Positions 694 through 33,072 of a stretch of 34,489 bases of DNA are shown here, one piece after another. Every line of letters starts with the position of its first letter. The stretch's first letter is position 1. The notes below the pieces were generated by a model. It was given only the letters and a program-made list of their open reading frames with translations, was not told where the DNA came from and searched no databases. This stretch comes from a virus (taxonomy: Duplodnaviria; Heunggongvirae; Uroviricota; Caudoviricetes): IMG/VR virus record IMGVR_UViG_2541047695_000003. One strand, 5' to 3'. The position numbers and the translations under genes are program-made.

Positions 694-717
694 GGGACTC
701 TTCGGAGTCCCTTTTTT
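694..717 (+). terminator. Rho-independent terminator (GGGACTC-TTCG-GAGTCCC plus TTTTTT), possibly bidirectional
   Basis: Perfect 7-bp stem with UUCG loop and T6 on + strand; A-rich on the other side; overlaps the stop codon of the minus-strand gene 716-1660. Confidence 0.5.
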
Positions 718-1660
718 ATTGGCAGTAAGAAAAGTTAGTACCGTACATTTCATCATGAAGCATTGCAACATTGCGTTTCTGTTCTTCTTCCTCGTCTACC
801 GCATCACTAGAAAAATGAGATTTGCCCTTAAAAGAACGAAGCAATTGCAGTGCAGCCATCGGATCACGCATCACATCGATTTTCACTTCTACTTCATCAT
901 TTGCGGCCTCATCAGCCGCATTTTCAACTACTGCCACCGGAGCAACTTCTTTAGCTTTCAGTTCTTCAATCTCAGCTTTCTGTGCTTCGATGATCTGGTC
1001 TTTTTCTTTCAGTGCAGCTTTCAGTTCTGCGATCTGTGCTTCCAGTGCAGAGAAACGATCTTCAACAGCAACCGGAGAAACAGCATTAACCTGTGCTTCC
1101 AGTTCTACGAAAGCGTCGCAAGATTCAATACGTGCTTTTTCTTCACCTTCATATGCAACCAGTTCTACTACTTCTTTCTCAGTAGCGTGGCTGTTAAAGA
1201 ATACAGCAAAGTAAGGATTGCCGGATTTGGTGAAGTTCAGTTTAGCTTTTCCGGTAACTTCTTTACGACGACCAAAGGTAATGTTGCAATCAGCGGTATC
1301 CTGAAAATCCATGTTAGGAGCGGAAACGATAGCAGTATCACCAGCAATCACTAGGTGGAACAGTTCAGAAGAGTTCTTAACGGTGAAAGTAACGATGTGG
1401 TCTACTGCAACGTCTTTAGCAGGTTTAACGCGGTCGATTGCTTTACGAATGCCGTTAGGCAGTTTACCGTCAACACCAAAGCCAGCCGCGATCAGTGCTT
1501 CACGATGTGCTTTAAAGCCAGCGAAAGCGGATTTCTGCTGCGCAAAGGAAACATGAGCAACAACTTTCGGCTGAATCTTCTTGTTTGCTTCGGTGCCAAA
1601 TTTGATAACTGCTTTAGCGTTGGTTACTTCGTTAGTGAAAAAGTTAGCGGAAAATAACAT
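716..1660 (-). CDS. Hypothetical early protein (314 aa): globular N-terminal region, central coiled-coil, acidic C-terminal tail
   Basis: Long ORF with diverse composition; AGGAG SD 9 nt upstream of ATG (1660); the + strand overlapping ORFs are low-complexity Phe/Ser-rich artefacts. Function not recognised. Confidence 0.75.
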   Translation of the reverse strand: MLFSANFFTNEVTNAKAVIKFGTEANKKIQPKVVAHVSFAQQKSAFAGFKAHREALIAAGFGVDGKLPNGIRKAIDRVKPAKDVAVDHIVTFTVKNSSELFHLVIAGDTAIVSAPNMDFQDTADCNITFGRRKEVTGKAKLNFTKSGNPYFAVFFNSHATEKEVVELVAYEGEEKARIESCDAFVELEAQVNAVSPVAVEDRFSALEAQIAELKAALKEKDQIIEAQKAEIEELKAKEVAPVAVVENAADEAANDEVEVKIDVMRDPMAALQLLRSFKGKSHFSSDAVDEEEEQKRNVAMLHDEMYGTNFSYCQ

Positions 1661-1774: not shown

Positions 1775-1954
1775 TTAACAAACTTGAACGTTAATCTTTA
1801 CCTGAATTTCGTATTTCTTCATTAGCTTGTAGAATCCGCTTCTATCAATTCCTTCCTTCTTAAAGAAGTTTTCCCCGCCTCGCTCAGTGTCGCTGTAAAA
1901 GCGTTTAGCAATATCAACAATCATTTCACGAGTGAACTTAACAGGTCTAGCCAT
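1775..1954 (-). CDS. Small HTH DNA-binding protein (59 aa, MARPVKFTREMIVDIAKRFY...GIDRSGFYKLMKKYEI), paralog family A
   Basis: ATG at 1954 (minus) with GAGGA SD 8 nt upstream (the track ORF starts at an upstream TTG, 1969). Shares the RPxxF...DIA...GI...FYKxMKK motif with 5372-5599 and the C-terminus of 5634-6239. Confidence 0.6.
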   Translation of the reverse strand: MARPVKFTREMIVDIAKRFYSDTERGGENFFKKEGIDRSGFYKLMKKYEIQVKINVQVC

Positions 1955-2053
1955 AAGTAGATTCCTCAAATGTGGATTAATAAGGACAATAAAAAGAGCT
2001 TTTCGCCCTCGATACTTCTATTTATAAAAGTCATTTCAGAAAACCCTGCAAAA

Positions 2054-2075
2054 CCACTGTGTATCTGATCAGTGG
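2054..2075. repeat. Inverted-repeat site CCACTG-N10-CAGTGG (operator-like)
   Basis: Perfect 6-bp arms; a near-identical copy lies at 2139-2160; adjacent to a candidate leftward promoter (-35 TTGCAG 2050-2045). Confidence 0.4.
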
Positions 2076-2138
2076 GAGCACGAATTGCTAAAGAGAAGAT
2101 TAATTATTAATCAATTCGTACAATATTCAACCGAAAAA

Positions 2139-2177
2139 GCACTGTATATCTAACCAGTGCTGTATGAATTAGCAGTG
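2139..2177. repeat. Inverted-repeat site GCACTG-N10-CAGTGC followed by a third CAGTG half-site
   Basis: GCACTGTATATCTAACCAGTGC (2139-2160), then CAGTG again at 2173-2177; direct repeat of the 2054-2075 element (CACTGT-TATCT-A-CAGTG core). Confidence 0.4.
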
Positions 2178-2296
2178 AATCAGGAGATTTTCAGAAGTGA
2201 ACAATCATTTCACACATGTATTTATAACGTGGAAATTCTTGCTTATCATCTATATGGGGACTGTTTAGAAAATTTCAACCCCCACCAGTGAGAAAA

Positions 2297-2325
2297 AGTA
2301 TAAAATAATCCTTGACAGTTGTCAA
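2297..2325 (-). promoter_or_regulatory. Candidate sigma70-type promoter reading leftward (-35 TTGACA, 17-bp spacer, -10 TATACT), overlapping palindrome TTGACAGTTGTCAA
   Basis: Minus-strand TTGACA at 2325-2320 and TATACT at 2302-2297 with exact 17-nt spacing; the perfect 14-bp palindrome 2312-2325 could also be an operator. Confidence 0.4.
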
Positions 2326-2519
2326 TGCACTTGACCTAAGCGAGAAATGACTATCAAAATTTTTGTTTGAAAATGGTAGATCAGGATTATCAACCTTTAT
2401 AACCTATTATAGCGCGGAGACCTTTTGACAATTCTTTTTAAATCATTAACTTACGCCACTTTTTGGTGATTTTTTGATTAAATAATATACAAGAATTTTC
2501 TATCAAAATATTTGATGGG

Positions 2520-2770
2520 AATTGCCCCTGAAATTCTGAATTTTTGCCCCCGAATAAAATCCCCAAGATTCTACTATCCCATTTTTGCCCCTGAAACCTA
2601 CTATTTTTGCCCCTGAAATTCTGGGAAACAGTGATTTTGCCCCTCATTTTTGCCCCTGAAATGCCAATAATTGCCCCTGAAAATCTAATTTTTGCCCCTC
2701 ATTTTTGCCCCTGAAAAGGATTGGTGAGAAAAACCCTTTATAAAACATTAACTTAGCGAGGGGCAAAAGC
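2520..2770. repeat. Iteron-like array: ~9 direct copies of (T)TTTTGCCCCTGAAA (core GCCCCTGAAA / GCCCCTCA) plus one inverted copy (GAGGGGCAAAA)
   Basis: Cores at 2524, 2555 (variant GCCCCCGAAT), 2587, 2609, 2639 (GCCCCTCA), 2652, 2673, 2694 (GCCCCTCA), 2707; inverted copy 2759-2769; irregular spacing of roughly 13-32 bp; no spacer regularity, no coding potential. Confidence 0.75.
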
Positions 2771-2859
2771 GGGGGATCGGGCGTGCATAGATATTATATA
2801 ACACATTCGCTACGCTCATGTGTAAAACTAAAAACAACAAATAACCAAAAAGATAATTA

Positions 2860-2878
2860 GGAGGGCGTAGCCCGACTG
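2860..2878. repeat. Direct repeat copy 1: GGAGGGCGTAGCCCGACTG (contains GGGC-N3-GCCC mini-hairpin)
   Basis: 16/19 identical to copy at 3291-3309; the two copies bracket ~430 bp of repeat-rich non-coding DNA. Confidence 0.5.
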
Positions 2879-3055
2879 CGCGAAGCGCTAACCAATTACT
2901 TCTAGTAACAACTAATTTAAACTAGATGATACTAGATGGTCTTAGAAGGAATTAACTAGTTTGCTCGCTCGCTTCGCTCACTCTCAAACGTCTGCGACGC
3001 CACTGCGTGGCATCGAGAATCACTTCTGAAAGGATTTTCTCGAAAGGGATTTAAT

Positions 3056-3142
3056 ACTAGTTACTAACTGATTCTAGAAAGATAGTAATAATCACTTTGA
3101 AGATAATAGTAGTTAACTGGTTACTAGATGATTCTAGATCAC
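3056..3142. repeat. Tandem imperfect repeats of a TTACTA(A/G)(C/A)TGATTCTAGA-containing unit (about 60-bp period); related ACTAGATGATACTAGATGG at 2921-2940
   Basis: TTACTAACTGATTCTAGAAA (3061-3080) vs TTACTAGATGATTCTAGATC (3121-3140), 17/20 identical; each followed by CACTTT(G/A)A. Confidence 0.45.
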
Positions 3143-3167
3143 TTTAATGATCATGAAAGGTATTGGT

Positions 3168-3196
3168 ATCCCTTCGGGATTGCAACCTTCGGTTGC
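3168..3196 (+). other. Two adjacent GC-stem hairpins with TTC(G) loops (ATCCC-TTC-GGGAT; GCAACC-TTC-GGTTGC), no T-run
   Basis: Back-to-back stable stem-loops seen directly in the sequence; not followed by a U-run, so not a canonical terminator. Confidence 0.3.
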
Positions 3197-3290
3197 TAAA
3201 TTGCTTCCTGATTATTATTTCTCCAAAAGAAAGATTATTATATTCTAAAGATACTTCTTCGTTTTGATCATAATTTAATCAAATCATGAA

Positions 3291-3309
3291 GGAGGGCTTT
3301 GCCCGACTG
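3291..3309. repeat. Direct repeat copy 2: GGAGGGCTTTGCCCGACTG
   Basis: See copy 1 at 2860-2878. Confidence 0.5.
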
Positions 3310-3398
3310 AATACAATCACCTTTCATAATAACAAGAATTTTCTCTTTATAAATAATAGTGAACTTACTTGATTCACTTTCTTTTAGAGGATACCACT

Positions 3399-3848
3399 AT
3401 GATCAATACTAAAACTCCTTTCGTACTTCTGGGTCTGGACTCTGAAAACTATGGTAACTTCCATATGCTAGAAGTTTTCGCTCATCGTGGTTATAACATC
3501 ATTCGTCATTCCGAAGACTCCAACTACTCAACTGCTTTCTACGCTTTAAAACGAAATGGTCGTCCTACTGTGATCATCGACTGTTTTACTGATGAGGGTC
3601 GTCTTCAATACAACGATATTCCAGCAATTATTGTTCGTGATGATCTGCCGTTTCAAGTCCGTTCCGGTGACATTGACCTGGGTAGCTTCTTGACTCTTCG
3701 TGAACTGGATGAAGCAATGTTTAATTACGGTAAAGAAACCGCTCAGGAAGCCCCAGAACAAGATGAGGAAGACGAAGACTACGCACCAATCGCTTTCTCT
3801 TCTCACGGTGGCTTCTACGGTTACGACGAAGGCTTAGATATGCTGTAA
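3399..3848 (+). CDS. Hypothetical early protein (149 aa) with strongly acidic C-terminal tail
   Basis: ATG at 3399 (MINTKTPFVLLG...) with GAGGA SD; the track ORF starts 10 codons earlier without an RBS. C-terminus EAPEQDEEDEDYAPIAF... is acidic. Confidence 0.7.
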   Translation: MINTKTPFVLLGLDSENYGNFHMLEVFAHRGYNIIRHSEDSNYSTAFYALKRNGRPTVIIDCFTDEGRLQYNDIPAIIVRDDLPFQVRSGDIDLGSFLTLRELDEAMFNYGKETAQEAPEQDEEDEDYAPIAFSSHGGFYGYDEGLDML

Positions 3849-3968: not shown

Positions 3969-4301
3969 ATGAAAGAATTTACCATCACTAAATCCCTGTA
4001 TGACTGGACTGTTAAAATCTCCGGCAAAACCGTTTCTGTAACCCCTAGCCATGTAGAAAATGATTGGGGCGTATCCCGTGAAACTATCTCCCGTAGTATG
4101 CATGTTCCGTTTGATCTGATGACCTTAACTGGTATTCATGCAATGCTGGAAGTTCGCGAGCAATTCGAAGCTGGTAATCACAATGCAACTCCAGTTAGCA
4201 ATCACCTTCTTACTAATGAAGAACGTGAAATCATCGAAAACTGGCGTTATGAATATGCGATTCCTTATTATGAAGAAGACCAAGTAGAAATCGATTGGTG
4301 A
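3969..4301 (+). CDS. Hypothetical protein (110 aa)
   Basis: ATG with AGAGGA SD 7 nt upstream; promoter candidate immediately upstream; no recognisable motif. Confidence 0.75.
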   Translation: MKEFTITKSLYDWTVKISGKTVSVTPSHVENDWGVSRETISRSMHVPFDLMTLTGIHAMLEVREQFEAGNHNATPVSNHLLTNEEREIIENWRYEYAIPYYEEDQVEIDW

Positions 4302-4389: not shown

Positions 4390-5196
4390 ATGAATACTGT
4401 TACCGTTATGAATACTGCTAAAACTGCTTCCGTGTCTCTGGTTGTTGATAACACCAAACCGCTGACCATGTCTTCCCGTCAGATCGCTGAATTTACCGGA
4501 AAGAAACACTTTCACGTAAAACGCGACATTCGCGAAATGCTGATTACCTTAGAATTAGATGAATCCAAATTTGGATGCATCTTTTTTGACCAATATGGAC
4601 GCGAGCAAACAGAATATCACTTGAATGAAGAACTGACTCTGACTCTTGTCACTGGTTACAATATCCAGATGCGAAACGCGGTTATTCAGGAATGGAAGCG
4701 ACTGAAAGAAGAAAATGAAAAACTTCGCTCTACTCCGGTTAACCCGTATGCAGACTTTGAAGAAACAGACTGGATCGAACTGGCATTAAAGAAAACTCGC
4801 GAAAATAAAAAGCTGATTGAACTTCATGTTCGCAAATCCGTAGATAGCCATTCAATGACGCGTCTGTTAGGCGCTAAAAAGGGCGCTACGAAGGTTAAAG
4901 AAGCACTGACGGCCTTACGTACTGCTGGATACATCGAGCGCGTCTATGATGAAAATAACAAGCCGTGTGGGTATGTTGCTAATGATTCTTCTCTCTCTTT
5001 CTGCCGCATGAATGCTCACTACCAACTTGAGTTTACTGTTGATGTGCTTCCGGTGCTGGTTGAATTGGGTGTTTTGGAAGAAGAACAAAAAGCAACTCTG
5101 AATCTTCCTAAGCCGAACAACACTATTCTGATTCAAAATAAAGCGGCTGAACGTCTCCGTCAGAATGTTGGATCACTGGAAGTCTTCGGACTGTAA
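4390..5196 (+). CDS. Rha-family phage regulatory protein / antirepressor-like (268 aa)
   Basis: N-terminal SRQIAEFTGKKHFHVKRDIREML matches the conserved Rha-domain signature (HxxVxRDI) as I recall it; AAGGGG SD; followed by a strong terminator. Confidence 0.75.
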   Translation: MNTVTVMNTAKTASVSLVVDNTKPLTMSSRQIAEFTGKKHFHVKRDIREMLITLELDESKFGCIFFDQYGREQTEYHLNEELTLTLVTGYNIQMRNAVIQEWKRLKEENEKLRSTPVNPYADFEETDWIELALKKTRENKKLIELHVRKSVDSHSMTRLLGAKKGATKVKEALTALRTAGYIERVYDENNKPCGYVANDSSLSFCRMNAHYQLEFTVDVLPVLVELGVLEEEQKATLNLPKPNNTILIQNKAAERLRQNVGSLEVFGL

Positions 5197-5633: not shown

Positions 5634-6239
5634 TTATTTAGAGGACTTACATTTTATCGGAAAAAGTTCTCCATCGTCAATACTCATAAAGAACTCTGCC
5701 TTAATCCCGTACTTCTTCAACCGTGAATAGTATGTACCCCGACTTATATCAACCTTGCGCAGCACTTCAAAGAACCCTTTAGGATCGTTGTAATAGTGGC
5801 TGTATCGCACGTTAGCGAGTTCTACAAACAATTCCCTTGTATCACCATAGCCTTTCTTGAAAGCCTCGTTACGATAGCGTGTAATAGCGTGATTCAATCT
5901 CTTCTGTTTCAACACTTCTCGGATCGGCTTCCACTGCAACCTATAGATAGGACCGTCATCAATGCGATAATAACGCTTGATATCAAAATCAAACCAATCT
6001 CGGACTCGCTGAAACTCTGTCTGTGAGGTGCGATACTTCTTAAAGAAGTTATGAATATCGGTATACCCATGATCACGATACAACTCGATTAAAATCTGTT
6101 TAGCTTCCTCACGACTAAAGCCAGATGTTGTGTAATCAGTCTTCTTGTGATGGTGCTTAACTGGCAAACGATATTCATGATCGGTACAACAAGAAAAGGC
6201 TAATTCTACTTCATCTCTTTGTTGCTGATTAATTAGCAT
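5634..6239 (-). CDS. Hypothetical protein (201 aa) with C-terminal HTH-like segment ([16 protein letters not shown]) related to paralog family A
   Basis: AGGGGG SD 5 nt upstream of ATG 6239; divergent from the terminase gene; function unknown. Confidence 0.7.
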
Positions 6240-6326: not shown

Positions 6327-8234
6327 ATGAAACTAATTTCTAATAAGGCCAAATTAAAAAAGATTCTCAGAAATGCAGCCAAATATATTACGCCACCGCC
6401 TAAACTCCTTCCATCGGAATGGTGCGAAGCTAATATGGTGCTGGTAGATGGTCCTCAAGCTGGGGATAAAGTTAAATTGCTGTCATTCCAGAAAGGTATG
6501 ATTGATGCTCCTTTCCTTGAGAACAAGAAAAAGTATGTTCTGATGACCAGTGCGCAGATCGGAAAGACTACCATCCTGAACGGCATCCTGTTTAACCAGA
6601 TGGCTAACGATCCATGCAATATGATTATCGGACAATCAACCGCTAAAGAAATGTCTCAATATCTCGCTGGTAAGATCCGACCGTCTATCGAAGCATGTGA
6701 TGCATTAAAAGACGTGGTTACAGACAAGAATGATCGCAATGCGGTTAACAACAATAACCAACTCCAGCTAAAAACGAATCACTTCCTGTACATGGTATCG
6801 CTTACCAGTCCATCAACCCTGCGCGGTAAGACTGCAAAGGTCGGACTACTAGACGAAATCGATGCTGCTACAGCCTCAGAAGAAGGTGATCCGGTGGCAC
6901 TGGCTGCTAACCGTTTAACTACCTTTGGCGATGAAGGCCGATTAGTCGTATCCAGTACCCCGACCAGTAAGCTCGGAAGCATTAACCAGCAATGGTTATC
7001 AAGCGATATGCGTATGTTTTTTGTTCCGTGTCCTCATTGCGGGGAACACCAGGTGATCGAGTGGGAAAACGTTCAATTTGAATGGCGTAACATCGATGGT
7101 AAGAACTTACCCGATCCTGATACCGCTCGTTATATTTGCCCCCACTGTAAGAACGCATGGACAGAAGGGGAACGAATCAGGGCAGTAGCGCAAGGCGAGT
7201 GGAGAGCAACCCGTGAAAGTGAAGTAGCAGGATTCTGGATTAGCCGTCTGTATTCACCTTTCAGCACGATCCGCGCTTGTGTGGTTGATTTTAGTCATGC
7301 GTGGCAATCCTTTGATTTACAATCATTTTATAACACCGTGTTAGGCAAGGTATACGATGATCAGGACACGGCAGTAGAAGCAAATGAACTGGAACAACTC
7401 AAAACAGATGTTTCTATCGAGAATATCCCTGATGACGTGATTTTCTTGTGCTCAGGAATTGACCAGCAATTGGATCGCGCAGAATCTACCATCTTAGGTG
7501 TAGCGAAAGATAAGGTTTACATTCTGGATCACCGTAGCTTTTACGATCATAACTGTGAACGATACGAATCACCTGTATGGGATCGTCTGGTTAACTTCAA
7601 GAAAACCAAATTCTATAACGTTAATGGTGAACGTGTGCCAATGCTCGCCAGCTTCCTCGATACATCAAACGGTCGATTCACTCAAGCCGGATACCGTATT
7701 TGTGGTAAGTGGAAGAACCTACACGCTATTAAAGGTAGTTCATCTGGTAATGCTCCAGTGATTCCGGTTAAACCTACCCGCACAGGTGGTCATGAATTGC
7801 TTATGCTGGGCGTTAACGTTGGTAAATCCGCTGTTCGTGAAATGCTGGTTAGAAACCTGAAAGATAATCCTCATATTGGCTTAGAAATATCAGAAACCGT
7901 TCCTGATGATTATCTCGATCAGCTTTTGAGTGAATCCATCAAGCGTACTACTACTGGTGTTCGTTGGGTGAAAAATCCAGGTAGTACCCGAAACGAGGCT
8001 CTCGACTGTCTGGTTTATAGCTATGCTGCTTCTCGCTACGTCCTTTCAAAAATGTCATGGGATAAACTCATTGCAATGAAAGACAGCTTAAACAGCGTTA
8101 AAGAAGAACCCGTAAAAGCTCCTGAATCGCAATCTGACGAGCAAATCGAAGAAACTAAGCCAATCACACGACCGCAACGTCAAAACATCGCCAGACGCCC
8201 AAATAGAGGCCGTAGCTGGGTAACATCGTTCTAA
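6327..8234 (+). CDS. Terminase large subunit, lambda gpA family (635 aa)
   Basis: By recall of lambda gpA: matching N-terminal EW-x-ANxxL...FQ segment, Walker-A-like SAQIGKT, CPHCGE...YICPHC zinc-ribbon-like pair, and C-terminal RNEALDC(L/F)VY motif; GAGGG SD; first gene of the long rightward structural operon. Confidence 0.9.
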
Positions 8235-31343: not shown

Positions 31344-33023
31344 TTAAATTCCAAATTCCTGTAATGGACCTGGTATTTCCTCTTCTGGTTTCCAGTTCTT
31401 ATCTGTCAGCATGTCTAAACATGGATGCAGAACAAGCCCGTTGCTCTCCAGAATCTGCCTATCATTGATAGTTTTCAAATCAATGAATATCCGGCCTTTC
31501 CTCGTTCCTCTTGAATTTTCTATTACAACTCTCTGGGTCTTTCCATCGATGTATTCCAGCACAAACAAGTTTTTATTTCTGTCAATCCTGCTACACCCGA
31601 TCCGCTTTAGAGCTTGCTTAATCTTAAACCGGACCTTTAGTCGTTCCTCGTTATAAACATCTTCTAAATCAAATTCTGCGAGCTTCTCCCAGCCTTGAGA
31701 GTCCACAGAATACATTTCCTCTTCTGCCATCTTGATCTGATTGTAGAGTGTTTCACGCTCGCTATTGAGGGTAGTAATCTGATCGGCTAGCTCCTTCGTT
31801 GCTCCTGTCATAGCAGAAAGGGCAATCAGGTTATCAATCTTGCGTGATATTTCATCAACCTGTACTTTCAACGCCGGAACCGGATTAGCCTTGTCCTCAG
31901 CAATCCATATTTTATCAGCCAGCAATTGCAATACAGCTTTCTCTAATTGATCACCTCGAAAACTCCAGTTTGGATGCTCGCAATCAAGTCTACGTGAACG
32001 GGTCGCATCACATGTATAACGATACTGGTCAGAACGTTTGTTCGTTCCCTTCACTTTAACCATAGCGCAACCGCAATGATCACATTTCAATAGGCCAATA
32101 CCACTAAGCAGGGGGATCGGTTTAACTTCTTCCTTGTCTCCAAAGTTCCATGCTCTAGCACCAATATTTTTCTTAAGGTGATAGAACGTAGCATCATCAA
32201 TAACACGAGGGTAATAATCCTTTAACTCATAGTTAACACCATCTACAGAGACTTCCTTGATACCAATCAAAGCGCGGGTATGGAACAACCTTTCAACCAT
32301 TGCCCGTGACCATTTTGAATGCTTCTTGTTGCTTACTGCTGGTGGCGGTGTATATGTCTCGTTAAGGTGATCCAGTATCTCGGCGGTTGAACGTCCATTC
32401 TTCCGTAATTCCACAATCTCCTGAACAACAGGGAAGTATGTAGGATGAGGCAACACATAACCGGAAGTGGTATCCGTCCACCACATATTCTTTCCAACTT
32501 CCTCGATTGCCACTGCCGGATTCTGGGGATTTTCTTGATGGGCTTTAATCTTAATCAGTGCGCTTGAGTTAGTACGATTGCGCTTAGTCTGGCTTTCCTC
32601 ATTACCACGGATGAATAAAAGGATGGAGAACATCAGGTCCATCGGGTTAGCGGTAACAGTATCCAGCGAGTAGATCTTGTTATCCATGCCAGTAACAATG
32701 GTTATTCCCCTACGGATGATTGAAAGGAATAACTCCTGCGCACTGACAATATCGGCACGGGATAAGCGGTCCAAGTTTTCAATGAATAGCCAGCTACCAA
32801 CAGGAACGGATCTACCAATTGCATCAAGGAAACGAGATAGCGCCCCTGTTTTAGAGTTAGCACCCTTAAACGCAGATACACCCAGATCCTGATAATCATT
32901 TACCAGTTCAAGGTCATACTTTGCCGCAACCTCTCTCGCCATCCTGATTTGTCGTTCATAACTCGAACCATCATTCTGACGCATAGACGAGAAGCGAATA
33001 TACGAATACAGTTTAGTTTTCAT
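31344..33023 (-). CDS. Large serine recombinase (serine integrase, 559 aa)
   Basis: N-terminus MKTKLYSYIRFSS...Q with catalytic-Ser resolvase-type domain, then a recombinase domain, Cys cluster (CDHCGC...C-x-A...CEH) and C-terminal coiled-coil, the architecture of phiC31/Bxb1-type integrases. Start taken at ATG 33023 rather than the upstream TTG 33038 of the track. Confidence 0.9.
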   Translation of the reverse strand: MKTKLYSYIRFSSMRQNDGSSYERQIRMAREVAAKYDLELVNDYQDLGVSAFKGANSKTGALSRFLDAIGRSVPVGSWLFIENLDRLSRADIVSAQELFLSIIRRGITIVTGMDNKIYSLDTVTANPMDLMFSILLFIRGNEESQTKRNRTNSSALIKIKAHQENPQNPAVAIEEVGKNMWWTDTTSGYVLPHPTYFPVVQEIVELRKNGRSTAEILDHLNETYTPPPAVSNKKHSKWSRAMVERLFHTRALIGIKEVSVDGVNYELKDYYPRVIDDATFYHLKKNIGARAWNFGDKEEVKPIPLLSGIGLLKCDHCGCAMVKVKGTNKRSDQYRYTCDATRSRRLDCEHPNWSFRGDQLEKAVLQLLADKIWIAEDKANPVPALKVQVDEISRKIDNLIALSAMTGATKELADQITTLNSERETLYNQIKMAEEEMYSVDSQGWEKLAEFDLEDVYNEERLKVRFKIKQALKRIGCSRIDRNKNLFVLEYIDGKTQRVVIENSRGTRKGRIFIDLKTINDRQILESNGLVLHPCLDMLTDKNWKPEEEIPGPLQEFGI

Positions 33024-33030
33024 ACCATTT

Positions 33031-33072
33031 CCAAACAAAAACGCCCCTACCGCGTATTATAACGATAGGGGC
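33031..33072 (-). terminator. Hairpin GCCCCTA...TAGGGGC followed by U-rich tract on minus strand
   Basis: 7-bp stem with 16-nt loop; minus-strand downstream GTTTTTGTTTGG; sits between 33087-33506 and the recombinase start and overlaps the alternative TTG start. Confidence 0.4.

What the first reader, a model, noticed from the sequence alone, without database searches (positions are those of the whole stretch)
2860..3309. 19-bp direct repeats GGAGGGC(N3)GCCCGACTG bracketing a 430-bp repeat-rich non-coding segment
Two near-identical 19-mers (2860-2878, 3291-3309; 16/19) each containing a GGGC-N3-GCCC mini-hairpin flank a segment with no convincing ORF that holds tandem ACTAGATG and TTACTAnnTGATTCTAGA repeats and several hairpins. 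Bracketing direct repeats are expected for recombination sites, boundaries of an inserted or invertible element, or repeated processing/binding sites. Together with the iteron array, this makes 1970-3398 a 1.4 kb control hub.
Basis: seen in the sequence. Interest (0 to 1): 0.65.

Follow-up and report, generated by a model that had tools for sequence, protein, structure and literature searches.

The report
Twin conserved GA-clamped mini-hairpin signals
The two 19-base repeats are real, but they are not the ends of a movable cassette: they are two copies of a small hairpin-forming signal conserved almost letter for letter in insertion sequences and phages across many bacterial phyla, absent from Rfam 15 and not found in the searchable papers, and here most likely a start signal for DNA priming beside the phage's replication origin.

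Summary
Observation confirmed: GGAGGGC-NNN-GCCCGACTG occurs at 2860-2878 and 3291-3309 (17/19 identical, 18/20 with the preceding A), and nowhere else in the window (0/100 shuffles give two hits). The cassette-boundary reading fails: in 21 relatives no indel or mosaic breakpoint falls at the repeats. The 19-mer is the core of a ~27-nt cap, [G.A,N.G,A.G]-[R-U,G-C]-[G.A,A.G]-GGGC-GTA-GCCC. In dozens of diverse bacteria it tops a 12-20-bp stem of unrelated sequence (15/15 stem pairs covary; G.U 22 vs A.C 2, so only the G-rich strand folds). There it lies inside IS21, IS3-like and other mobile elements. Rfam and sequence-string searches of the paper library find nothing. In the window the copies belong to a cluster of six c-GNA-g triloop hairpins (0/200 shuffles) next to an iteron array. 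This is the signature of extraordinarily stable DNA mini-hairpins found at phage and plasmid priming sites. Both copies read hairpin-GA-CTG, like the phage G4 primase origin (hairpin-CTA-CTG). Best reading (~0.4): single-strand DNA priming signals. Main rival (~0.2): an RNA leader hairpin mimicking the 23S rRNA site of ribosomal protein uL1. Function untested.

The parts
2859..2878 (+). Copy 1 of the GA-clamped mini-hairpin: A-GG-A-GGGC-GTA-GCCC-G-A-CTG. Contains the GCGTAGC mini-hairpin; CTG at 2876-2878.
   Evidence: Cap model R2 gives 28.3 bits, E = 4.6e-5, the top hit in the window. 20/20 identical to the cap of IS21-type hairpins. Local fold ((..((((...))))..)).
2878..2888 (+). Abutting GCGC-GAA-GCGC hairpin (contains GCGAAGC, the classic DNA mini-hairpin); shares G2878 with copy 1.
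   Evidence: Conserved in all relatives, including the non-homologous left module of the L019 group, where copy 1 is replaced by CGGC-GTA-GCCG. GCGNAGC properties from PMC13037366.
2989..3011 (-). Two adjoining hairpins, CGTC-TGC-GACG (2989-2999) and GCCAC-TGC-GTGGC (2999-3011), that read c-GCA-g on the minus strand.
   Evidence: c-GNA-g scan; folds; conserved in close relatives.
3168..3196 (-). Two hairpins, ATCCC-TTC-GGGAT (3168-3180) and GCAACC-TTC-GGTTGC (3182-3196). On the minus strand both contain CCGAAGG, the mini-hairpin of RSF1010 ssiA.
   Evidence: invariant in all relatives that have the region; ssiA comparison from PMC13037366.
3243..3283 (.). 41-nt block TTCTAAAGATACTTCTTCGTTTTGATCATAATTTAATCAAA directly upstream of copy 2. 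It is shared with one ORF-free gap of RB49-like coliphages and contains TTGAT-N9-ATCAA and a GATC. Function unknown (promoter or operator?).
   Evidence: 95% over 41 nt and 26/26 to two spots in the RB49 gap.
3287..3311 (+). Copy 2: U-GA-AG-GA-GGGC-TTT-GCCC-GA-CT-GA-A, that is, two tandem sheared G.A steps around two Watson-Crick pairs. CTG at 3307-3309.
   Evidence: R2 gives 20.3 bits, E = 5e-3, the second-best hit in the window. Relatives keep AUGAAGGA...GACUGAAU while the apical part varies in a structure-preserving way: GGGC-TTT/TAT/TTTA-GCCC and GGC-GAA-GCC.
2510..2716 (+). Iteron array (about 9 copies of TTTTTGCCCCTGAAA-like units), the presumed replication-origin core. Both 19-mers lie to its right on the + strand.
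   Evidence: families D1, D2. Present in the relatives that carry copy 1 and absent from the fetched DNA of the L019 group. The origin function is inferred, not shown.

Best explanation
The two 19-mers are two copies of a conserved module that folds in single-stranded nucleic acid: a c-GNA-g-type mini-hairpin (GGGC-loop-GCCC) clamped by sheared G.A pairs and followed by CTG. In this phage they most likely act at the DNA level. When the + strand is unwound beside the iteron origin, they would snap into very stable mini-hairpins that exclude SSB and present hairpin-GA-CTG to the host primase, as single-strand initiation signals of the phage G4 / plasmid ssi kind. Both copies sit on the strand that would be the lagging-strand template of a fork leaving the iterons rightwards. 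Four further mini-hairpins on the opposite strand lie between them. The same capped hairpin inside IS21, IS3-like and other elements lies on the strand that would be the lagging-strand template of a fork entering at the nearer end, which suggests the same job during copy-out replication. Shown here: the motif, its conservation, its strand-specific fold, the mini-hairpin cluster, and the layout shared with G4.
For: (1) Real and non-random. (2) Conserved module: the cap GGAA-GGAGGGCGTAGCCCGACTG-GAG tops 12-20-bp stems of unrelated sequence in 33 distinct hairpins from many phyla. All 15 lower-stem pairs show compensatory changes, 98.4% of cells are paired, and 0/500 shuffles reach the observed pairing or covariation score. 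An IS21 on pNGR234a outside the training set scores 66 bits and turns the cap's R-U pair into G-C. (3) Strand-specific single-strand fold: G.U(T) 22 vs A.C 2 among 546 stem positions, and the cap's A/G-U pair is 6 A-U: 6 G-U. (4) DNA signature: all seven GC hairpins of 2860-3310 have 3-nt loops closed by C-G, and six read G-N-A on one strand. Six of the window's eight c-GNA-g hairpins fall in 1.4% of its length (shuffle mean 0.055, maximum 2 of 200). Copy 1 contains GCGTAGC, its neighbour GCGAAGC, and two minus-strand hairpins CCGAAGG. PMC13037366 reports that GCGNAGC mini-hairpin DNA is extraordinarily stable while the RNA versions are considerably less so, that such sequences are frequent at phage replication-initiation sites (G4, St-1, alpha3), that RSF1010 ssiA carries CCGAAGG beside the RepB' primase site, and that mini-hairpins bind SSB poorly. 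(5) Layout equals G4: in NC_001420 the annotated primer (3970-3997) starts at the T of CTG 3996-3998, 3 nt after Hairpin I. Both window copies are hairpin-GA-CTG. (6) Position and orientation: both copies are on the + strand, 145 and 575 nt right of the iterons. In IS elements the G-rich strand always reads inward from the nearer end, whether or not that is the sense strand of the transposase. L030 has three copies antisense to its tube, sheath and capsid genes, which a DNA-level signal tolerates and an mRNA leader does not.
Against: No experiment or sequencing-coverage data support any of this. That the iterons are an origin is inferred: the neighbouring 314-aa and 64-aa genes are ORFans with no recognisable Rep, helicase or primase, and the structure prediction failed. 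Copy 2 has a TTT, TAT or TTTA loop in most relatives (GAA only in the L004 group), so it is not a GNA mini-hairpin there. The L019 group keeps copy 2 although no iterons occur in the fetched DNA. The four minus-strand hairpins are not followed by CTG. Invariance of all ~27 cap positions, including the G.A mismatches, across phyla argues for a specific conserved reader. Primase start trinucleotides differ between phyla (my own knowledge), and one natural variant reads GACCG instead of GACTG. In IS21 the -10 box is in the left terminal repeat (PMC10122671), and two Bacteroidales elements have TAtcTTTG just upstream, so the hairpin is also expected at the 5' end of transposase mRNAs; an RNA role is therefore not excluded. 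G.T wobbles do not discriminate DNA from RNA.
Confidence: 0.4

Rival explanations
1. RNA leader element that mimics the 23S rRNA binding site of ribosomal protein uL1. The cap would fold in the 5' leader of the rightward operon (and of transposase mRNAs) and bind free uL1, as the autoregulatory L1 operators do, coupling mobile-element expression or RNA stability to ribosome-assembly status.
For: uL1 is one of the few truly universal, sequence-specific RNA binders. Its domain I recognises a motif invariant in rRNA and mRNA, and bacterial L1 binds archaeal mRNA (PMC2175363; PMC10931766). Operators are small irregular stem-loops with an internal bulge holding a G-A pair, occur in the widest phylum range, and often come as two sites (PMC3616713). 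The real E. coli 23S reads GGUGG-GA-GGC...GCC-GACCUUGAAAUA-CCACC, and the Rfam consensus is gGuGG-GA-GgC...GcC. The cap reads (R)G-GA-GG(G)C...G(C)CC-GA-C, and the pNGR234a/L030 variant GGGAGGGC...GCCCGACC equals the rRNA strands plus one G-C pair. In the whole E. coli rrn operon the only exact split match GGAGGC...GCCGAC is 23S:2124, the L1 stalk. The L004-type copy 2, GA-GGC-GAA-GCC-GACUGAAUACC, equals the rRNA junction minus three bases. The 3' flank of copy 2 resembles the rRNA 3' strand at p = 0.016 when only the flank is shuffled. Rfam has no L1-operator model, so its silence is uninformative. The hairpin lies just after the IS21 -10 box.
Against: The 3' junction is only GA, against 6-7 nt in 57 of 68 extracted proteobacterial operators (never fewer than 6) and 12 nt in rRNA. 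The H77-equivalent is mostly non-Watson-Crick. The sites lie ~100 nt from the start codon, whereas operators end 11-20 nt before it. A model built from 20 genuine operators does not find the cap; it does not find the 23S site either, so that test is inconclusive. The p = 0.016 is post hoc and one of four tests, and copy 1 shows nothing beyond the core. GNA triloops closed by C-G are a DNA feature rather than an RNA stability feature. The antisense orientation in L030 and in one IS3 subgroup needs extra assumptions. The archaeal operator sequence that prompted the idea is from my memory and could not be verified.
Confidence: 0.2
2. RNA leader hairpin with another role: a 5'-terminal stabiliser, an insulator or processing site for incoming transcripts, or the site of a different conserved reader such as RNA polymerase (put-like).
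For: Strand-specific fold. Position at the entrance of gene modules and just after promoter elements in IS21 and in two Bacteroidales elements. The whole 2850-3400 + strand is unusually structured. The cap sits in the sense orientation ~110 nt upstream of istA in 21 of the 22 IstA/IstB loci; in L095 the genes are on the opposite strand.
Against: Most hairpins lack a U-tract, and no terminator is predicted at either copy. A mere stabiliser would not need 27 invariant positions and would be expected to use RNA-type tetraloops. HK022 has no cap-like sequence and its putR region is unrelated. The antisense cases do not fit.
Confidence: 0.2
3. Recombination sites or boundaries of an inserted cassette.
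For: Direct repeats of 19-20 bp bracket a variable, ORF-free segment, and a serine recombinase is encoded in the window.
Against: None of the indels or mosaic junctions in 21 relatives coincides with a repeat, and no relative has a single recombined copy with the segment missing. The same 19-mer occurs singly inside IS elements of unrelated bacteria. The recombinase gene is ~28 kb away.
Confidence: 0.03
4. Chance similarity in a repeat-rich region.
For: The region is rich in short repeats.
Against: 0/100 shuffles give two hits. Both copies are conserved in relatives. The 19-mer of copy 1 is identical to a motif found across phyla.
Confidence: 0.01

Closest known systems
Primase-dependent complementary-strand origin of phage G4 (G4-type single-strand initiation signal)
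   Same: A stable hairpin containing a GCG(N)nAGC mini-hairpin, followed within 2-3 nt by 5'-CTG-3', at whose T the primer starts (G4: Hairpin I-CTA-CTG; window: hairpin-GA-CTG at both copies). E. coli host. It works only in single-stranded DNA, and the mini-hairpin excludes SSB (PMC13037366).
   Different: There is no sequence similarity beyond the layout. G4 uses three hairpins in a ssDNA genome, whereas here there are two short G.A-clamped hairpins 431 nt apart in a dsDNA temperate phage. Priming here is untested.
ssiA/ssiB of RSF1010-type plasmid origins (RepB' primase)
   Same: Iterons followed by hairpin signals on opposite strands. ssiA carries a CCGAAGG mini-hairpin (PMC13037366), identical to the core of the two minus-strand hairpins at 3168-3196.
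   Different: No RepB'-like primase, RepA helicase or RepC is recognisable in the window. The two 19-mers are on the same strand. The ssi consensus outside the mini-hairpin was not compared.
Mini-hairpin DNA d(GCGNAGC) (Hirao and co-workers)
   Same: Copy 1 contains GCGTAGC and its neighbour GCGAAGC. All six clustered hairpins are c-GNA-g with a C-G closing pair, and a sheared G.A pair is part of the fold.
   Different: The conserved module is larger, with extra tandem G.A steps and the GACTG tail. Copy 2 in this window has a TTT loop.
uL1 operators and the 23S rRNA L1-stalk junction (H77-GA-H78)
   Same: An irregular stem-loop with a 5' GA at an internal loop and a G-A pair. The strands G-GA-GG(G)C...G(C)CC-GA-C(C) match E. 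coli 23S 2124-2129/2159-2165. Conservation is universal, and two sites per leader occur in some lineages.
   Different: The 3' junction is 2 nt instead of 6-12. The sites are not adjacent to a ribosome-binding site or to rplK/rplA. The cap is not detected by a model of genuine operators. Binding is untested.
Left-end architecture of IS21-family elements (L1/L2 terminal repeats, -10 box in the left end)
   Same: The long-stem version of the module lies inside IS21-family elements directly after the two terminal repeats and ~110 nt before istA.
   Different: The window has no IS. Its copies lack the long stem and the terminal repeats. The hairpin is not mentioned in the one IS21 structural paper I read.
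PeSL promoter/stem-loop cassettes of RB49-like phages
   Same: The 41-nt block just upstream of copy 2 is shared with RB49-like phages, and the RB49 gap also holds c-GNA-g hairpins.
   Different: In RB49 the block occurs only in one intergenic gap, not at the ~50 PeSLs. RB49 has no cap. A sigma-70 consensus could not be placed convincingly on either strand.

Membership tests
Capped hairpin of IS21/IS3-type mobile elements (family defined here, model R2) | Cap core A/G-GGAGGGC-loop-GCCCGACTG with the pairs R-U, G-C, [G.A, A.G] and GGGC/GCCC | tested here: met
   Copy 1 is 20/20 identical and copy 2 is identical outside the loop. R2 gives 28.3 bits (E = 4.6e-5) and 20.3 bits (E = 5e-3), the two best hits in the window.
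Capped hairpin of IS21/IS3-type mobile elements (family defined here, model R2) | 12-20-bp covarying lower stem below the cap, and the G.A / N.G / A.G 3x3 loop (flanks GGAA...GAG) | tested here: not met
   The R2 matches are local to model positions 15-38 only. Copy 2 has U-A, G.A, A.G instead, and copy 1 has no continuation. The window copies are minimal versions.
Capped hairpin of IS21/IS3-type mobile elements (family defined here, model R2) | Location inside a transposable element near one end | tested here: not met
   There are no transposase genes or terminal repeats nearby. The sites are internal to a prophage found in ~55 E. coli genomes.
G4-type primase (DnaG) single-strand initiation signal | Stable hairpin in the template strand followed within a few nt on its 3' side by 5'-CTG-3' | tested here: met
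   Window: GCCC-GA-CTG at 2870-2878 and 3301-3309. G4: Hairpin I ends at 3992 and CTG is at 3996-3998, with the primer annotated at 3970-3997.
G4-type primase (DnaG) single-strand initiation signal | Primer synthesis by primase on SSB-coated single-stranded DNA at that site | not testable with these tools
   This needs an in vitro priming assay or in vivo primer mapping.
Mini-hairpin DNA d(GCGNAGC) | G-N-A triloop closed by C-G within GC stem pairs | tested here: met
   Copy 1 contains GCGTAGC and 2878-2888 contains GCGAAGC. Six c-GNA-g hairpins cluster in 2850-3320. Copy 2 of this window (TTT loop) does not meet it, but the L004-group copy 2 (GGC-GAA-GCC) does.
Iteron-type replication origin with ssi signals (RSF1010-like) | Iterons bound by a cognate initiator, an adjacent AT-rich region, ssi hairpins on both strands, and element-encoded Rep, helicase or primase | tested here: inconclusive
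   Iterons, AT-rich DNA and hairpins on both strands are present. No Rep, helicase or primase is recognisable: neighbours are ORFans in Pfam, PHROGs, NCBIfam and PDB, and the structure model is unusable.
uL1 autoregulatory operator (proteobacterial rplK-leader type) | GGG-GA-GC[hairpin]GC-G(Y)U(N)2-4A-CCC ending 11-20 nt before the start codon of rplK | tested here: not met
   The consensus comes from 68 operators extracted here. Model R1 scores the E. coli operator at 29.9 bits but gives no hit on either copy or on IS caps at E <= 10. The cap's junction is 2 nt and it lies ~100 nt from a start codon.
23S rRNA L1-stalk mimic (any uL1 site) | Helix - 5' GA - G.C-rich helix, with strands matching GGGAGgC...GcC and a non-canonical G-A pair; nanomolar uL1 binding | tested here: inconclusive
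   The sequence and architecture resemblance is met, and flank similarity gives p = 0.016. R1 also misses the true rRNA site, so no valid computational test exists. Binding is not testable here.
HK022 put-type antiterminator RNA | Sequence or structure similarity to putL/putR (two stem-loops just downstream of early promoters) | tested here: not met
   No cap-like sequence occurs anywhere in HK022, and its putR region is unrelated.
Any Rfam 15 family | Match to a curated covariance model | tested here: not met
   There are no hits at gathering score in the window. Nothing relevant appears at E <= 1 in six cap loci or at E <= 10 in focused searches of L003 and window 2700-3420.
Site-specific recombination / cassette boundary repeats | Presence/absence polymorphism or junctions coinciding with the repeats | tested here: not met
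   All breakpoints in the alignment of 21 relatives fall elsewhere.

The most novel reading that the evidence does not exclude
The cap is a transcribed decoy of the 23S rRNA L1-stalk junction. Insertion sequences of several families and some phages across bacterial phyla would carry a miniature binding site for the universal ribosomal protein uL1 in their leader RNAs, letting mobile DNA read (or tap) the cell's ribosome-assembly state. This would be the first ribosomal-protein operator mimic known outside ribosomal-protein genes.
Probability: 0.2. Interest if true: 0.9.

Novelty: new variant of a known kind. Interest (0 to 1): 0.72.

Why it matters
A ~27-nt sequence that stays essentially invariant while the stem beneath it is rewritten in every lineage implies a reader or a physical constraint common to very different bacteria (Acidobacteria, Spirochaetes, Bacteroidales, Clostridia, Alphaproteobacteria, Planctomycetes and others). 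It occurs in several transposon families, on rhizobial plasmids (173 records, up to 13 places per replicon) and in phages, yet Rfam does not hold it and sequence-string searches of the paper library found nothing. If it is a DNA priming signal, copy-out-paste-in insertion sequences would carry their own lagging-strand start site, a missing piece of that mechanism, and temperate dsDNA phages would use G4-like signals at iteron origins. If it is an RNA mimic of the uL1 site, mobile elements would plug into ribosomal-protein feedback. Either way the element is short, portable and directly testable in E. coli, because this prophage family carries it.

Tried and rejected
1. Cassette or recombination boundaries: rejected from the alignment of 21 relatives.
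2. tRNA, tmRNA or a known RNA family: none found.
3. Intrinsic terminators: none is predicted at the copies, and most IS-type hairpins lack U-tracts.
4. HK022 put homology: rejected.
5. PeSL membership of the RB49-like block: not supported. The block occurs in a single RB49 gap and no sigma-70 consensus fits.
6. Small ORF starting at ATG 3286: the peptide is not conserved, because the frame shifts in the L004 group.
7. Shine-Dalgarno decoy or STAB-SD: AAGGAGG is fully inside the helix, and the cap also occurs in Bacteroidales, so I dropped it.
8. K-turn, CsrA site, SRP domain IV and 16S h44 similarity (GGAGGGCG...GACUGGGG lie on one strand): considered and dropped as not structurally compatible.
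9. Relaxed or half-anchored pattern scans for cap variants: only chance hits.
10. Operator covariance model R1 as an L1 test: inconclusive, because it also misses the rRNA site.
11. Literature: sequence-string searches found nothing, and three L1 papers or supplements were not held. My recalled M. vannielii operator sequence therefore remains unverified.
12. Function of the 314-aa neighbour: no family, no solved relative, only near-identical E. coli/Shigella homologues, and an unusable structure model.
13. The distal helix AUGAAGG/CCUUUCAU around copy 2 predicted by folding is not kept in the L005/L029 relatives.
Full report
**1. The observation**

They differ only at two loop bases, so identity is 17/19, or 18/20 with the preceding A (family D9). 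Allowing three mismatches, the pattern hits only these two places in the window. None of 100 dinucleotide-preserving shuffles gives two hits (mean 0.07).

The segment between the copies has no ORF above 34 aa. Its + strand folds better than all 100 shuffles (z = -4.6).

**2. Genomic setting**

The window is a temperate phage. It encodes a gpA-type large terminase (6327-8234), a portal, a head protein, a T4-gp37-like tail fibre, a Rha-family regulator (4390-5196) and a large serine recombinase (31344-33038, minus strand).

The stretch 1970-3398 is a 1.4-kb ORF-free gap between leftward genes (716-1660 and 1775-1969) and the long rightward operon starting at 3399. It holds:
- a strong leftward promoter-like site, 2325 to 2297;
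- about nine iterons at 2510-2716;
- the segment under study.

No cultured phage in the collection resembles it. It is a prophage present in about 55 of 5,426 complete E. coli genomes, with the best match in strain PE15 at 98.9%. Its neighbours are all annotated as hypothetical proteins.

**3. Not a bracketed cassette**

I aligned 21 related loci. The region is polymorphic, but never at the repeats:
- L021 lacks window ~3155-3347.
- Five loci (L019, L020, L028, L032, L033) are non-homologous left of ~3020 but keep copy 2.
- A 38-nt block (~3086-3123) is replaced in about half the relatives.

No locus has a repeat-to-repeat deletion. Because the repeats are direct, they cannot flank an invertible segment.

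Copy 2 varies in a way that preserves a hairpin: GGGC-TTT-GCCC, GGGC-TAT-GCCC, GGGC-TTTA-GCCC and GGC-GAA-GCC. Its flanks AUGAAGGA...GACUGAAU are invariant. Copy 1 has a GTA or TTT loop. In the alternative left module, copy 1 is replaced by CGGC-GTA-GCCG, followed by the same GCGC-GAA-GCGC hairpin.

**4. The 19-mer is part of a widespread module**

Most hits with arbitrary loops are chance matches in GC-rich coding DNA. Hits with loop GTA (69) form a family.

In that family the extended cap (C)GGAA-GGAGGGCGTAGCCCGACTG-GAG tops a 12-20-bp perfect stem whose sequence differs in nearly every lineage. There are 33 distinct hairpins, from Acidobacteria, Spirochaetia, Bacteroidales, Clostridia, Dehalococcoidia, Planctomycetes, Alphaproteobacteria and others.

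On a 12-sequence alignment:
- all 15 lower-stem pairs show compensatory double changes;
- 98.4% of cells are paired;
- neither shuffles (0/500) nor slid registers (at most 49% paired) come close.

Positions that my pattern did not force are also conserved: -4 G 31/33, -2 A 32/33, +1 G 30/33 and +2 A 29/33, while -3 is free. The cap therefore reads [G.A, N.G, A.G]-[R-U, G-C]-[G.A, A.G]-GGGC-GTA-GCCC. Natural variation is limited to three places:
- the loop (CUG in L048/L075);
- position -3;
- the R-U pair, which is A-U, G.U or G-C.

Relaxed and half-anchored scans found no other structured variants.

A covariance model of 22 such hairpins (R2) scores an untrained IS21 on pNGR234a at 66 bits. 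The window's two copies are its two best hits in the window, at 28.3 and 20.3 bits (E = 4.6e-5 and 5e-3). Both match the cap positions only. The window copies are therefore minimal, stem-less versions. Copy 2 reads U-A,[G.A,A.G],A-U,G-C,[G.A,A.G],GGGC-UUU-GCCC.

**5. Where the long version lives**

- In 21 loci the hairpin lies ~110 nt upstream of an IstA/IstB pair; in a twenty-second IstA/IstB locus (L095) the genes are on the opposite strand (IstB_IS21 confirmed by Pfam; annotated istA/istB on pNGR234a).
- Independent copies of the same IS in one genome become identical 50-70 nt upstream of the hairpin, at a terminal TG. The hairpin is therefore inside the element, directly after its two terminal repeats.
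- Other instances precede IS3-like OrfA/OrfB genes or a tyrosine recombinase. Others lie just beyond the stop codon of an IS3-like or IS481-like transposase on the opposite strand.
- In every classified IS-type case except L095 the G-rich strand reads inward from the nearer element end.
- The motif is abundant on rhizobial plasmids: 173 records and 366 places.
- A Mu-like-headed phage contig (L030) has three short-stem copies, all antisense to its tube, sheath and capsid genes.

**6. Which nucleic acid folds?**

Within 546 stem positions there are 22 G.U(T) wobbles but only 2 A.C mismatches, and the cap's R-U pair is half G.U. The structure therefore forms in a single strand, the G-rich one, and not as a duplex palindrome. 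That leaves RNA or single-stranded DNA.

Arguments for RNA:
- IS21 has its -10 box in the left terminal repeat (PMC10122671).
- Two Bacteroidales elements have a TAtcTTTG box 5-7 nt before the hairpin.
- The hairpin would therefore sit at the 5' end of transposase mRNAs.

Arguments for DNA:
- All seven GC-rich hairpins of 2860-3310 have 3-nt loops closed by C-G, and six read G-N-A on one strand.
  - Plus strand: 2863-2873 GTA and 2878-2888 GAA.
  - Minus strand: 2989-2999 GCA, 2999-3011 GCA, 3168-3180 GAA and 3182-3196 GAA.
- Six of the window's eight c-GNA-g hairpins fall within 1.4% of its length. Block shuffles give a mean of 0.055 and a maximum of 2 in 200.
- The same pattern holds in the non-homologous left module of the L019 group and in the related RB49 gap.
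- According to Kimoto and Hirao (PMC13037366):
  - d(GCGNAGC) mini-hairpins are extraordinarily stable;
  - their RNA counterparts are considerably less stable;
  - they are frequent at phage replication-initiation sites (G4, St-1, alpha3);
  - RSF1010 ssiA carries CCGAAGG beside the RepB' primase site;
  - N4 virion-polymerase promoters are such hairpins;
  - they bind SSB poorly.
- Copy 1 contains GCGTAGC, its neighbour GCGAAGC, and two minus-strand hairpins CCGAAGG.

**7. Comparison with a real primase origin**

In the G4 record the RNA primer is annotated at 3970-3997 and the origin at 3998. The sequence is Hairpin I (GGACGGC-GAAAGCC-GCCGTCC, ending at 3992), then CTA, then CTG at 3996-3998. 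Both window copies are hairpin-GA-CTG, with CTG at 2876-2878 and 3307-3309.

Both copies lie on the + strand to the right of the iterons. That is the lagging-strand template of a fork leaving the iterons rightwards.

In the IS elements the hairpin strand is likewise the lagging-strand template of a fork entering at the nearer end. IS3- and IS21-type copy-out-paste-in transposition has a replicative step (established knowledge; the link to this hairpin is my inference).

This geometry, the DNA-type loops and the antisense cases make the DNA reading my first choice, at about 0.4.

Weak points of the DNA reading:
- No Rep, helicase or primase is recognisable nearby.
- Copy 2 usually lacks a GNA loop.
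- The L019 group keeps copy 2 with no iterons in the fetched DNA.
- Full invariance of the cap across phyla calls for a conserved reader, whereas primase trinucleotide preferences differ among bacteria (my knowledge).

**8. The main rival: a uL1-site mimic in RNA**

What the literature says about uL1 operators:
- uL1 recognises a motif invariant in 23S rRNA and in its own mRNA.
- Bacterial uL1 regulates archaeal mRNAs.
- Operators are small irregular stem-loops with an internal bulge holding a G-A pair.
- They occur in the widest range of phyla.
- They are sometimes duplicated.

These points come from PMC2175363, PMC3616713 and PMC10931766.

Resemblances:
- The real E. coli 23S junction is GGUGG-GA-GGC...(H78)...GCC-GACCUUGAAAUA-CCACC, and the Rfam consensus is gGuGG-GA-GgC...GcC-aucguUGAaAUA-CCaCc.
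- The cap is (R)G-GA-GG(G)C...G(C)CC-GA-C. The pNGR234a and L030 variants read GGGAGGGC...GCCCGACC. The L004-type copy 2 reads GA-GGC-GAA-GCC-GACUGAAUACC, which is the rRNA junction minus three bases.
- The L1 stalk is the only place in the E. coli rrn operon where both halves match exactly as opposed strands.
- The 3' flank of copy 2 resembles the rRNA 3' strand at p = 0.016. This is post hoc and one of four tests.

Differences:
- The 68 genuine proteobacterial operators I extracted are GGG-GA-GCC..GGC-GYUNNNA-CCC and end 11-20 nt before the ATG. The cap has a 2-nt junction and lies ~100 nt from start codons.
- A model built from genuine operators (R1) does not find the cap. It also misses the 23S site, so that test is inconclusive.
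- Rfam lacks an L1-operator model.
- The archaeal operator sequence that first suggested the idea is from my memory and could not be verified.

I rate this rival at about 0.2, and other RNA-leader roles together at about 0.2.

**9. Novelty and verdict**

Rfam 15 has no matching family. Full-text searches for the sequence and for the concept found nothing.

The finding is therefore real and non-random. It is misread as a cassette boundary. It points to a cross-phylum, strand-specific hairpin module of mobile DNA that neither Rfam 15 nor the searchable papers describe and whose reader is unknown. Its kind is known (ssi-type DNA hairpin, or protein-binding leader hairpin). This particular conserved variant, and its presence in insertion sequences, appear to be new.

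Noticed in passing
window 2510-2716: Array of about nine iteron-like units (TTTTTGCCCCTGAAA, at 21-22-nt and longer spacings), with an inverted partial copy AGGGGCAAAAGCGGGGG at 2759-2775. It is the presumed origin core, but no initiator gene is recognisable nearby.
   Followed up: partly
window 3243-3283; L001 (RB49 AY343333) 1399-1424 and 1535-1575: A 41-nt block (TTCTAAAGAT.CTTCTTCGTTTTGATCATAATTTAATCAAA) is shared at 95-100% with two spots in a single 413-nt ORF-free gap between RB49ORF165c and ORF164c, and is present in 59 Krischvirus-like records. It contains TTGAT-N9-ATCAA and GATC. The RB49 gap also has c-GNA-g hairpins and the 11-mer ACTTCTAGTAA, shared with window 2898-2908. In RB49 the block lies on the strand opposite the flanking genes.
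   Followed up: partly
window 3056-3078, 3116-3138, 2920-2946: Operator-like repeats rich in CTAG (ACTAGTTACTAACTGATTCTAGA / ACTGGTTACTAGATGATTCTAGA; AACTAGATGATACTAGATGGTCTTAGA). The second lies partly inside a 38-nt block that is replaced in half of the relatives.
   Followed up: no
window 3347-3356: TATAAATAAT is conserved in every relative, including the L021 deletion variant that lacks copy 2. It may be the -10 of the main promoter of the rightward operon, and it resembles the T4 late-promoter box TATAAATA.
   Followed up: no
window 2297-2325 (minus strand): Near-consensus sigma-70-like site TTGACA-17-TATACT pointing leftward toward the 64-aa and 314-aa ORFan genes.
   Followed up: no
window 716-1660 (-), 1775-1969 (-), 3399-3848 (+), 3969-4301 (+), 5634-6239 (-): All genes flanking the control region are ORFans in Pfam, PHROGs and NCBIfam. 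The 314-aa protein (the only one searched for homologues) has only near-identical E. coli/Shigella homologues, and single-sequence AlphaFold gives pLDDT 43.
   Followed up: partly
L030 4720-4765, 6614-6661, 8771-8819: A GC-rich phage contig with Mu-like head and tail genes carries three short-stem cap copies within a ~75-nt repeated intergenic element. All are on the strand opposite the tube, sheath and major capsid genes, and two lie 27-37 nt from start codons. This orientation is unexplained under an mRNA-leader model.
   Followed up: partly
L092, L094, L132, L148, L134, L010: In one IS3-like subgroup the capped hairpin lies just beyond the transposase stop codon, on the opposite strand and at least 45 nt inside the right end. 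It follows a conserved ATAAGTGG..CTGCCGGTTG and precedes CGGCGGCGAAAAT.
   Followed up: partly
L367 (E. coli rrnH) 16S 1454-1489: 16S rRNA helix 44 contains GGAGGGCG...(20 nt)...GACUGGGG, which matches both cap halves (8/8 and 7/8). They lie on the same strand of the helix, so this is probably coincidence.
   Followed up: partly
L286 1103-1130 (E. coli rplK leader); L287-L366: The well-known uL1 operator upstream of rplK is not detected by any Rfam 15 model, even at E <= 10. The 68 operators extracted here give a sharp consensus, GGG-GA-GCC..GGC-GYUNNNA-CCC, ending 11-20 nt before the ATG, with a minority GAG...CUC form.
   Followed up: yes
window 22381-22426: A 13-bp perfect GC-rich hairpin (AAGCCCCCAUAG...CUAUGGGGGCUU) lies between the 809-aa gene and the next ORF. 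It is probably a bidirectional intrinsic terminator and was picked up as a weak hit by the cap model.
   Followed up: no
L046, L071, L100, L126, L131 (one Acidobacteriota MAG): The 19-mer with a TTC loop recurs in at least six identical copies of another repeated element with different flanks (…CTGCGAGA-GGAGGGCTTCGCCCGACTG-CCCCGGCG…). I did not determine whether it is coding or structured.
   Followed up: no
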